A stretch of 63,584 nt of DNA, the filler included, from Candidatus Woesearchaeota archaeon (GTDB lineage: Archaea > Nanobdellota > Nanobdellia > Woesearchaeales > CAZJJJ01), in NCBI GenBank assembly GCA_046538795.1. It is 6 parts of 6 records of this genome, joined end to end, with 100 filler letters (N's around TTAATTAATTAA, not from the genome) between each part and the next. Parts side by side here need not be neighbours in the genome. Positions count along the whole stretch, not along the records: positions 44,405 to 54,430 come from JBKHIF010000051.1; 5 more parts are not named here. One strand, written 5' to 3'. Shown here in pieces: positions 45,001 through 48,000 of the stretch (positions are counted from its first letter, which is position 1; every line of letters starts with the position of its first letter). A program made the position numbers.

Positions 45001-48000
45001 CCACTTTTTCTCCTTTCCCAAAAACCTTAATTTCAATTATAGCTACTTATATTGTCATCGTGATAATAAAAAAAACCTTAGATAAATATTTTTCTAATTA
45101 AATTTATTTAAAATATTCCAAAACTAAAACATCTCCAACTGTTTACCTGGTTTTTTTCTTCTTGCGCCCTTGATCTTTCCAGCCATTTCATAGATCGTTC
45201 TTTTTGGTTCGACTTTCAATATGTCTGGAGAACCCAAATAGATCATATTCGTACCATCAGTATTTATCCTTTTATCAAGGAAAATAACAGAACCATAATT
45301 GCCTAAATATCTTGCATCCTGAGAATCAATATGATCCTTCAATCCATTTAGATTCTGTCGTAGATTTTCTCCCATAACCTCGATCCTGAAACCGTAAGAA
45401 TTCTTTGAATTCATGTAATGTTCTTTAAGCTCGACAAAATCAGATAAGAGATCAACAAATTCTGCATAATCATCATTATCTGAAGAGACAATCCTTGATT
45501 TTCTCTTTATCTTCCTGAAATCATCAAAATCAACCCTTAACCCATACCGATTAAGATTAAGATTGTGGTTTTTTCTTAATCTTGAATGATCCCACCTTCC
45601 TAAATATCGCGCTGCAGAGTTAAGGATGCGACCCATCTCTTTTTTAGGAAGATTCTTATCTTTAATCTTTGAAGAAAGATCATCTGCTCTTCTTTTGTAA
45701 TTATAATAATCAACTACAACAGGCTTAATAAGAGCATTGATTACTCCGTCAATATGCATCTTTCTTAGGGCATTATGCCTGTAATCTTCACAATTTATTG
45801 AATCGCGAAAATCATAAAGCTCAGATATTTTTGGATCTATTGCAGTCATTATATCCCTGAAAGCGTCTGAATAGGAAACAAAATATGCAAAACTATCTTC
45901 ATAAACACCAACTCTTGGAGAACCCATCTCTGAAAAAACATCATTAGAAATTTCTTTCTTGAAATCAAGCTTTGCATTCTCTTCATACCTATAACGTTTC
46001 CAGAATGTCTCTTTACCCTTGATTCTTTCTTCAAGCTTTGGCTCTTTTATTATCCTGCTCATACCTACCTTTTCAATAAAAAGATGATCCCAGTATTCTT
46101 TTATCCAGCTTCGTCTCATCACAGCATCAAGCCCTCTTCCAGACCACTTTGAAAGAAAACAAAGATCTTCTCCAAACCCTATGTCTATCAAAGACTTAAG
46201 AGAAGTTACATCCATGACCTGATACTGGGCGACAAGCCGTGCCAGATCCTGATTATTTTCAGGATCATTTATAAGCTTAAGTTCTATCTCTTCAAGTTCA
46301 TCATATGAGACATCCATCTTTTTCTCATCACCAGAAAGAGCATAAGAAGTAAATGCCTTAAGCCCTTTTGATCCTAAGAAACTTACTGCATATTCTGCAA
46401 TTCTTACTGTATCTATTAGAAGCCTTCTGTGCATCTTTACTGATTTTGGAAAATCAAGACCTGATGATATCCAGTACTTTCTCTTAAAACCATCCCCGCC
46501 CACTGGAAAATCATTAGTATCTCTTAATTCATAAAGATCATGAGGAATGTTTGATGCAACAAGAACCCACGGATCTTCTTTTAATATTTTTTCAGAAACA
46601 TTATCTGCCATTAGCTTTTCATCATCATGGACATTTACTGAAAAACCCTTTACAGATTCATCCCTGAAATCTCTTACTGTGTGATATTCACCAAAAGAAT
46701 CAGAACCAGAATCAAACATTATTCCTAAATGAGAGGTACTTTTCTCAGGTCTTTTGAAAAGAGGCTGTTCTGTGTCAAAATAAGCTATCCCCTCTTTTAA
46801 CACATAATCCCAATCAACAAAACCTTTATGCTCTGGATTGAAATCATCCATCTTTACAGGAACTATTTCATCCTTTATGGAATCATAAAATTCATCATCA
46901 AAAGAAAGAATCTCACCAACATTTGCAATATGCTTAAACTGTGGCCAAAAATATGGATTGAAATAAGGTATCTTTTTCTTTCTCTTTTTTCCTTTCCTGG
47001 TATACTGCACATCTCCATACTTATCTTTTAATGTGCCATAAGAAAAATAATTGTCACGCAAATATTTCCACTTCTCAGCAGGAAGAAGTAATGCAAATAT
47101 ATTATCCTGGCCAGGAAGTATCTTTAGATTTTTATGCAAGAGATTCCTGTCACTGAAAATTTTATCTAAAACATCATGAGCCTTTTTGTATGAATTTGGT
47201 ATCGAAAAGAACCAGTTGTGATAATCTTCTAATAAAACTCCTCCCATGCCTCTGAAAGTAACACACACCTTCTCATCTTCATTTCTAAATACACAATCGA
47301 CAACTGCATCAAGCACCATGATAAACAGAAATAAACCTTAATTAAAAAATATTACTACAAAAAAGTAATCAATCAAGCAAGGTTTTCAATATGTGGAAAG
47401 AATTATCAGCAGCAACAGCCAAAAACGCAGTGAAATCAGCAGCAGCAGAACCATCAGCCTTATCTGAAATAGTTCTTACAACAACATAAGGAATCTTATT
47501 TATCGTGCAGACCATTGCAACAGATGCTCCTTCCATCTCAACAGCATCTCCTTTAAGTTCATCAGTAAGATAAGAATGAGAATTTATGTCTTTACGTGTC
47601 ATGAACTGATCTCCTGTAAGTATCCGTCCTAAAACAATCTTATGTTTCTCAAGTTTACATGAAAGACCCTTTTTTATCAGATCAAAATCAGCAGGGAACT
47701 CCTTGTAATCAGTGTAAAGAATTGCGCCGCGAGGATAACCAAGAGCAGTAACATCAAAATCATGCTGGATACAGTCTCTTGAAACAACAACATCACCAAG
47801 ATCAAGTTCTTTATTAAGAGCTCCTGCAACACCTGTAAATATGATCTCTTTTGGCTTGAATTCAGTGATAAGCTTTTGCGTAACCATTGCAGCCATCACC
47901 TTTCCAACTCCTGATTTGACCATCACAACCTCTTTACCAAAAAGTTTCGCATGATAAAATACAAATTTGTTCCATTCAATATCCTTGATCTTTTCAGAGT

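What a model noticed while it worked through the whole genome (the two positions that open the first line are those of the whole stretch)
45124..47319. Polymerase-dead, exonuclease-intact family B DNA polymerase missed by all family libraries
The unannotated 731-aa g0486 is a highly diverged family B DNA polymerase. It and its family keep the acidic residues of the proofreading exonuclease but have lost both polymerase motifs (DxxSLYP and YGDTDS), so it is predicted to be an exonuclease on a dead polymerase scaffold, distinct from the intact PolB g0820.
Evidence so far: No Pfam, PHROG or PDB sequence hit. ESM Atlas features (0.90-0.94) and structure (TM 0.52-0.57 over about 500 residues) point to PolB. 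A profile of 9 family members hits Pol delta and archaeal PolB exonuclease domains, E 2e-7. Invariant D182, E184 (Exo I), D261, D303, Y366, D370 (Exo III). Among 47 family proteins of 690 aa or more, a motif-A-like string occurs in 2 and a DTDS string in 1; the aligned positions read GxYxxVxxxY and HQxGxYxY. Present in 10 of 150 relatives, 51 clusters in the global library. Not among the groups in the passages of PMC7544198.
(Added by a program. Inside this text positions count along the whole contig: they may not be those of the stretch shown here. "Call 12" and the like, gene names such as g00115 and contig names such as C1 are that model's own, and its searches are not shown. The text may have been shortened before it was handed on; [...] marks where a part breaks off. 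The agent that wrote the report below was given it as the finding of a first reader that could run no searches.)

Follow-up and report, generated by a model that had tools for sequence, protein, structure and literature searches.

The report
Thumbless exonuclease-only PolB relative
A tiny archaeon carries a relative of family B DNA polymerases that has lost its DNA-copying site and its DNA-gripping thumb but kept its proofreading nuclease site, so it most likely trims DNA ends instead of copying DNA.

Summary
Confirmed and extended. The 731-aa ORF folds as a family B polymerase (pLDDT 81, Z about 20). Exonuclease residues D182, E184, D261, Y366 and D370 are each kept in 98-100 of 102 family members. 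None of 99 aligned members has both polymerase aspartates. This copy also lacks the thumb, ending in a clamp-motif-like tail (QLEMF); 14 of 49 members of its branch are thumbless.

The family is larger than reported: at least 90 of 401 genomes of the order (Woesearchaeota-type). It has two forms never found together: stand-alone (this gene) and head-to-head with a Cas4/RecB-like Fe-S nuclease. The dead polymerase half is under purifying selection in relatives (dN/dS 0.11-0.25). The host keeps an intact PolB and PolD.

Best reading: a clamp-associated 3'-5' DNA end-trimming exonuclease; activity is untested. Six literature searches found no description. This scan already reported the paired form several times, and a stand-alone 970-aa member once, on other DNA. 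Added here: both forms are one family, and the thumb is dispensable.

The parts
45124..47319 (-). Gene for the 731-aa polymerase-dead, thumbless PolB derivative
   Evidence: model; fold searches; one contig of run X1 covers the whole gene without gaps, and two contigs of an independent study (X2) cover all but 28 bases, including the 3' end, with no difference inside the gene (127)
46795..47319 (-). PolB-type N-terminal domain (about residues 1-175); lacks the roughly 90-aa helical insert of most relatives in its branch
   Evidence: structural alignment from residue 1-6 onward; alignment; model of a relative
46195..46794 (-). 3'-5' exonuclease domain (about residues 176-375), DEDDy type
   Evidence: hhalign to active PolBs, probability 98.6-98.7; PDB profile hits
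46768..46776 (-). Exo I, D182-T-E184
   Evidence: D 100 and E 100 of 102 members, the rest gaps
46537..46551 (-). Exo II, N257-x3-D261
   Evidence: N 93, D 99 of 102 (109); aligned to GWNVIDFD of the host PolB
46210..46224 (-). Exo III, Y366-x3-D370
   Evidence: Y 98, D 99 of 102 (109)
45871..45909 (-). Dead motif A strand (G471-Y483); F480 sits at the catalytic Asp position
   Evidence: register from hhalign of a relative; Asp in 0 of 49 stand-alone-branch and 3 of 50 paired-branch members
45394..45870 (-). Fingers region with helical insert (about residues 484-642); no motif B
   Evidence: model; KxxxNxxYG in 0 of 102 members against 18 of 22 active controls
45277..45312 (-). Dead motif C hairpin (R670-L681); Y675-G-S677 in place of D-T-D
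   Evidence: hairpin E671-675/E678-681 in the model; column counts; register to YGDTDS placed by eye from strand pattern and spacing
45127..45141 (-). C-terminal QLEMF, clamp (PIP)-like tail, following the palm with no thumb
   Evidence: QxxL/M-F in the last 12 aa of 21 of 98 complete members, 6 of 22 active PolBs, 4 of 446 neighbour proteins; model 6-719 aligns only to Thermococcus PolB 1-606 (43)

Best explanation
A former family B DNA polymerase kept as a 3'-5' DNA exonuclease. Shown: PolB fold, complete DEDDy residue set, loss of both polymerase aspartates and motif B, no thumb, a QxxLF-type tail like those of active PolBs of the same group, and purifying selection on the dead half in relatives. 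Inferred: two metal ions at D182/E184/D261/D370 remove nucleotides from 3' ends; the tail docks the enzyme on PCNA; the dead palm and fingers hold DNA or a partner. Its most likely job is trimming frayed, mismatched or overhanging 3' ends during repair or fork restart and leaving them to the intact PolB or PolD. Without the thumb this copy should prefer single-stranded 3' tails (inference from the known role of the thumb in holding duplex DNA, recalled). In the sister branch the same enzyme is paired with a Cas4/RecB-like nuclease of probably opposite polarity; this branch works alone. Odds by step: no polymerase activity 0.93, active exonuclease 0.85, clamp-linked DNA maintenance role 0.55-0.6.
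For: Model pLDDT 81.3; Foldseek E 4e-12 to E. coli Pol II; VIA Z 20.5, 480 aligned, rmsd 6.4 to 9N PolB; a full-length relative has pLDDT 93.5 and aligns over the whole PolB, Z 23. All four carboxylates in 95 of 102 members, the other 7 being alignment gaps or D261E. Strict motif A 0 of 102, motif B 0 of 102, against 22 and 18 of 22 controls. No member of 99 has Asp at both motif A and the second motif C position. 14 complete members of 49 end within 80 aa of motif C. dN/dS 0.11-0.25 in the dead half for 6 of 9 close pairs, 3 saturated. Clamp-like tail 30 of 98 (loose) against 17 of 446 neighbours; a PCNA gene lies within three genes in 8 of 80 loci and an HhH-GPD glycosylase nearby in 7. Host has intact PolB, PolD DP1/DP2 and PCNA.
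Against: No activity or expression data. Most members (68 of 98) lack a recognisable clamp tail in the last 20 aa. The own gene has no conserved neighbour and no partner nuclease. It is on a long branch and departs from the family at H197, H260, S293 and G319; no close relative exists to test selection on this copy. No Y-family polymerase was found in the host, so no obvious non-proofreading polymerase needs help. PCNA adjacency may be inherited synteny; kin are not independent. Two paired-branch members keep D at motif A and E at motif C.
Confidence: 0.6

Rival explanations
1. An anti-virus or anti-plasmid nuclease: it degrades foreign linear DNA from 3' ends, and with the Cas4-like partner in the other branch destroys both strands.
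For: Patchy in about a fifth of genomes, only 15-22% identical to relatives; partner resembles Cas4/AdnA nucleases; the passages of PMC5704561 link some DPANN solo Cas4 to defence.
Against: No PADLOC hit for the four family proteins tested. Recurrent neighbours are housekeeping genes (rpS8e 13, PCNA 8, RNase J 7, glycosylase 7 of 80 loci); integrase-like genes in only 3, judged from sequence. One copy per genome and no phage match for two members.
Confidence: 0.18
2. The exonuclease acts on RNA or RNA primers (DEDDy enzymes include RNases, recalled), or the protein is mainly a scaffold.
For: RNase J, rpS8e and translation genes recur as neighbours; the thumb that holds duplex DNA is dispensable.
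Against: Closest profiles and folds are all DNA polymerases; clamp-like tails are enriched; near-invariant catalytic residues argue against a pure scaffold.
Confidence: 0.1
3. This particular copy is a decaying remnant of the family.
For: Long branch, missing thumb and N-terminal insert, several non-consensus residues; not found in six genomes of its own family by the single-protein search.
Against: Open frame of 731 codons, all catalytic residues and the tail kept, confident model; 13 other complete thumbless members; same sequence in an independent study.
Confidence: 0.07
4. A remodelled but active polymerase, as PolB2 proved to be after it was called inactive.
For: Precedent in PMC7544198; D537 is kept in 39 of 49 members of this branch; second motif C Asp in 8 of 49 and 12 of 50.
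Against: PolB2 keeps the distal motif C Asp (136); here neither Asp is conserved, motif B is gone, D537 lies in a fingers helix and is not matched by a conserved Asp in the other branch, and the thumb is missing.
Confidence: 0.05

Closest known systems
Archaeal PolB3 (Thermococcales Tgo, KOD, 9N, Pfu)
   Same: Best sequence-profile match (E 6e-26, 94 bits); same domain order and exonuclease motifs; Z 20-23 (43, 81).
   Different: No motif A, B or C catalytic residues; helical inserts; this copy has no thumb; 11-16% identity.
PolII-like B7 group (the host's own PolB; E. coli Pol II)
   Same: Top Foldseek hit; hhalign probability 98.6-98.9; the same short QxxLF-type tails.
   Different: B7 has GWN at Exo II and intact polymerase motifs; the family has AYN/GHN and forms its own clade (108, 123). 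Which active group it came from is unresolved.
PolB2/Dpo2 'inactivated' polymerases (PMC2527604)
   Same: Patchy PolB paralog with broken motifs beside an intact PolB.
   Different: Opposite pattern: PolB2 lost Exo I/III and kept the distal Asp, and is a translesion polymerase; here the exonuclease is intact and the polymerase gone.
Other inactive PolB domains (Pol epsilon C-half, poxvirus F12, Tlr1 helicase fusions, herpes UL8-type subunit)
   Same: PolB scaffold kept without polymerase activity.
   Different: Described as structural, with the exonuclease lost or inactivated in the passages and titles seen; none is described there as exonuclease-only.
Cas4 / AdnA / RecB Fe-S nucleases (partner of the sister branch only)
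   Same: PD-(D/E)xK residues, QxxxY and four-Cys pattern; hits to AdnAB (E 0.0014) and SSO0001 (E 0.037), TIGR00372 in 8 of 24, PF12705 in 9 of 24.
   Different: Joined to or co-encoded with a 320-450 aa domain without any known match; no helicase or CRISPR link seen; not found in this genome.

Membership tests
Family B DNA polymerase (active) | N-terminal, exonuclease, palm and fingers fold | tested here: met
Family B DNA polymerase (active) | Thumb domain | tested here: not met
   51 aa after motif C against about 200 in most relatives; alignment ends near residue 606 of Thermococcus PolB. Met in most relatives.
Family B DNA polymerase (active) | Motif A Asp (DxxSLYP) | tested here: not met
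   F480; 0 of 102 strict matches; Asp in 3 of 99 at the column
Family B DNA polymerase (active) | Motif B (KxxxNSxYG) | tested here: not met
   0 of 102 against 18 of 22 controls
Family B DNA polymerase (active) | Motif C (YGDTDS) | tested here: not met
   YGS at the DTD position; first Asp 3 of 99, second Asp 20 of 99
Family B DNA polymerase (active) | DNA synthesis | not testable with these tools
   needs an assay
DEDDy 3'-5' exonuclease (PolB type) | Exo I DxE, Exo II NxxxD, Exo III YxxxD | tested here: met
DEDDy 3'-5' exonuclease (PolB type) | Nuclease activity | not testable with these tools
   needs an assay
PolB2/G2 | Exo I degenerate and Exo III missing; distal motif C Asp kept | tested here: not met
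   definition; opposite pattern in 109, 119
B7 / PolII-like clade | GWN at Exo II | tested here: not met
   ASN here, AYN/GHN in consensus; GWN picked up in 56 of 75 active PolBs fetched, mostly with the host PolB
B3 group | Nested in the B3 clade of a PolB tree | tested here: inconclusive
   only two outgroups, no named B3 in the tree
PCNA-binding (PIP) proteins | C-terminal Qxx(L/M)F-type motif | tested here: met
   QLEMF; enrichment over background; binding itself untested
Paired exonuclease-only PolB / Cas4-like module (scan notes, not in print) | Head-to-head Cas4-like partner | tested here: not met
   not found in G000 (97.6% complete) by three profiles; none of 53 stand-alone genomes is among 45 partner genomes

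The most novel reading that the evidence does not exclude
Nanobdellota turned a PolB into a dedicated clamp-riding 3'-5' exonuclease, first as half of a two-nuclease end-processing machine with a Cas4/RecB-like Fe-S protein, then as an autonomous enzyme that repeatedly shed partner and thumb. It would be a new class of archaeal repair nuclease, a proofreader or resector working in trans, with the dead palm and fingers serving a new binding role.
Probability: 0.45. Interest if true: 0.8.

Novelty: new variant of a known kind. Interest (0 to 1): 0.64.

Why it matters
The dead family B polymerases in the papers I saw lost the exonuclease too, or kept the polymerase and lost the exonuclease. Here the reverse is fixed across about a fifth of a large archaeal order with reduced genomes, so the function is worth about 2-3 kb of DNA. 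A survey seeded with polymerase domains, such as PMC7544198, would tend to miss it. The natural series (paired, stand-alone, thumbless) makes it directly testable what a PolB exonuclease does when uncoupled from synthesis, and points to an undescribed DNA end-processing route in DPANN archaea.

Tried and rejected
Truncation or assembly error as the cause of the short C terminus: rejected. The frame ends in the clamp-like tail, the next gene converges 22 bases on, and an independent study's contig spans the 3' end unchanged.

Replacement of NurA by the module: rejected. NurA matches in 20 of 45 partner genomes and 21 of 48 stand-alone-branch genomes against 188 of 401 overall (counted by hand from the list).

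Proofreading in trans for a Y-family polymerase: no PF00817 match in the host.

A partner elsewhere in the host genome: none; the best is a 60-aa Cas4-like stretch on C28, E 5e-5. In five other stand-alone genomes only G112 has a partial nuclease match. The partner's N domain was found in none of five (that call had no positive control).

Viral origin: no match for one member among phage records or for another among viral contigs. Alignment-based locus scans could not run, so viruses are weakly tested.

Word-index search with the 51-row alignment returned only the query; with one member, 9 proteins.

The partner's N-terminal domain gave no usable match in Pfam, PDB sequences or the Atlas.

Complex prediction of a paired member with that domain was not available.

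No RNA holder listed.

The bootstrap tree run timed out and gave topology only. Distribution outside this phylum was not searched.

Full report
Observation. The window joins several contigs with N runs; the gene lies on G000:C31. Its neighbours are an MTA/SAH nucleosidase-like gene, a tRNA-binding protein, a glycogen phosphorylase and a 194-aa unknown, none recurring beside relatives. The protein has no Pfam, PADLOC, NCBIfam or meaningful PDB sequence hit. A contig of a run that may be the source covers the whole gene. Two contigs of a second study cover all but 28 bases, including the stop codon and the last 235 bases, without differences in the gene.

Host. Records closest to the host's intact PolB are mostly titled Woesearchaeota, Nanoarchaeota or Pacearchaeota, with many labelled uncultured Methanosarcinales. 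Named family proteins are 'hypothetical protein' of Woesearchaeota or Nanobdellota. The host has one intact PolB with the GWN motif of the PolII-like B7 group (group definition), PolD DP1 and DP2 inside this window, PCNA and NurA. No Y-family polymerase was found.

It is a PolB scaffold. The library search gave 51 proteins; 10 of the 50 relatives pass the DNA_pol_B_exo1 cut-off, 8 more hit below it, and none hits PF00136. Family profiles match Thermococcales PolB (E 4e-11, 6e-26). The model built on 51 rows has pLDDT 81.3 and pTM 0.86. Foldseek ranks E. coli Pol II first (E 4e-12); VIA gives Z 20.5 over 480 residues, rmsd 6.4, to 9N PolB. A typical relative (P0012, pLDDT 93.5) aligns over the whole polymerase, thumb included. 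The query's residues 6-719 cover only 1-606 of the Thermococcus enzyme, so the thumb is missing.

Exonuclease kept, polymerase lost. I took one protein from each of 102 genomes and 22 active PolBs as controls. D182 and E184 are each present in 100, N257 in 93, D261 in 99, D303 in 95, Y366 in 98 and D370 in 99; all four carboxylates in 95. Strict motif A occurs in 0 of 102 (22 of 22 controls) and motif B in 0 of 102 (18 of 22). Profile alignment sets GVYENVHVA of P0012 on GIHDHVVVL, directly before the catalytic Asp, which is thus Tyr in P0012 and F480 here. In C-terminal alignments of 99 members (3 short ones dropped), the motif A column holds Asp in 0 of 49 and 3 of 50. The second motif C column holds Asp in 8 of 49 and 12 of 50, and no member has both. 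Two paired members have D plus E. The motif C register rests on the hairpin in the models and on spacing, not on a residue-level superposition; the automatic alignment of the paired branch slips in the palm. Fourteen complete members of 49 in the query's branch end within 80 aa of motif C (a fifteenth is cut by its contig). They fall in several places on the tree, with weak support. The dead half is nonetheless under selection: dN/dS 0.11-0.25 in 6 of 9 close pairs, 3 saturated. No pair includes this copy.

Tail. The protein ends in QLEMF. Active PolBs of the group end in QKNLFNY, RQKKLF, KQSKLF and the like. A strict QxxL/M-F lies in the last 12 aa of 21 of 98 complete members, 6 of 22 controls and 4 of 446 neighbour proteins; a looser pattern in 30, 20 and 17. 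A PCNA gene lies within three genes in 8 of 80 loci. Binding is inferred.

Family size and two forms. The single protein finds 9 of 150 relatives. Profiles over 401 genomes of the order find 53 stand-alone genomes (48 of the query's branch and 5 of the other) and 45 genomes with a second conserved gene; members also occur in other orders of the class. That gene ends in a Cas4/RecB-like Fe-S nuclease behind a 320-450 aa domain without known match, fused or as two genes. Of the 45 I checked 40. In 37 a dead PolB lies next to it, head-to-head in all but G164; two (G123, G182) lie near contig ends and one (G091) is a weak unrelated match. The median gap is 51 bases in 39 pairs, AT-rich with TATA-like runs. 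The family is therefore in at least 90 of 401 genomes, assuming searches drew the same genomes, as handles and denominators indicate. No genome has both forms (0 observed, 5.9 expected; kin not independent). The two branches align at probability 100 and form one clade (SH-aLRT 95.7); 46 stand-alone proteins including this one group at 87.5. The basal and paraphyletic position of paired members suggests that the pair is ancestral, but the root is weak. NurA presence does not track either form. Of the family-bearing genomes scored, all but G313 and G283 have a PF00136 match.

Unpublished genomes. G249 is one row and in the count of 53. G118, G277, G307, G340 and G372 are in the count of 45 and are the five not checked. 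Unpublished genomes also enter the NurA tallies. None is in the 102-genome set, and no conclusion depends on them.

How it most likely works. Shown by sequence and models: nuclease site complete; polymerase site, motif B and thumb gone; tail kept. Inferred: a two-metal 3'-5' exonuclease (mechanism recalled for DEDD enzymes) brought to DNA by PCNA, trimming 3' ends for repair or restart by PolB or PolD; in the sister branch it is coupled to a nuclease whose relatives cut 5'-3' (recalled for SSO0001). Rivals are a defence nuclease (0.18), an RNA-acting or scaffold role (0.1), a decaying copy (0.07) and a remodelled polymerase (0.05).

Literature. Searches. PMC7544198: I read parts 2-4 of 8; none of its groups has this pattern, and it was seeded with polymerase domains. 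Its supplement (cut when stored, cells cut at 400 letters) held none of five family strings; the sixth occurred five times, and the two places shown are unrelated PolBs. Passages only: PMC2527604, PMC4104785, PMC5499653, PMC5704561, PMC12926913 and PMC9258230. None describes an exonuclease-only PolB in DPANN or its link to Cas4. Subscription papers and bioRxiv supplements were not seen.

Earlier notes of this scan. I found the pair, before reading them. They report the paired form in several other genomes and a stand-alone 970-aa member. They are unchecked AI notes and not support. The cases they mention in Aenigmatarchaeota, Micrarchaeota and Binatia were not tested.

Verdict. A real, conserved polymerase-dead, exonuclease-intact PolB derivative, not found in the literature searched. 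It works like a PolB proofreading exonuclease but is not a member of any active PolB group or of PolB2. New variant of a known kind; interest 0.64.

Noticed in passing
window 44517-45101 (+): The 194-aa unknown gene converging on the finding is variable in the population: a low-depth contig of run X1 joins 44458 to 45122 with 28 other letters, skipping the gene.
   Followed up: no
window 30098-30244 and 19723-19799: A roughly 147-bp element with copies at 88-92% identity on seven other contigs of G000, possibly a MITE-like repeat or small RNA.
   Followed up: no
window 8165-8423: Tandem duplication with a period of 108 bp, 98% identical over 152 bp.
   Followed up: no
window 57138-63520 (+): Orc1/Cdc6, PolD DP1 and DP2 in a row, after an AT-rich stretch near 55930-57137 that may be a replication origin.
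   Followed up: partly
window 50211-51806 (-): 531-aa protein with no Pfam, NCBIfam or PADLOC match above noise.
   Followed up: partly
L260:2446-3405, L263:7418-8362 and alignment A9: The 320-450 aa domain fused to or co-encoded with the Cas4-like partner has no match in Pfam, PDB sequences or the Atlas; its fold is open.
   Followed up: partly
G313 (L023) and G283 (L235): Two of only three genomes of 121 without a PF00136 match (96-97% complete) carry the dead PolB; may be assembly gaps.
   Followed up: no
L233:2532-5219 and L235:6902-9598: Two paired members keep Asp at motif A and Glu at the second motif C position; the best candidates for residual polymerase activity.
   Followed up: no
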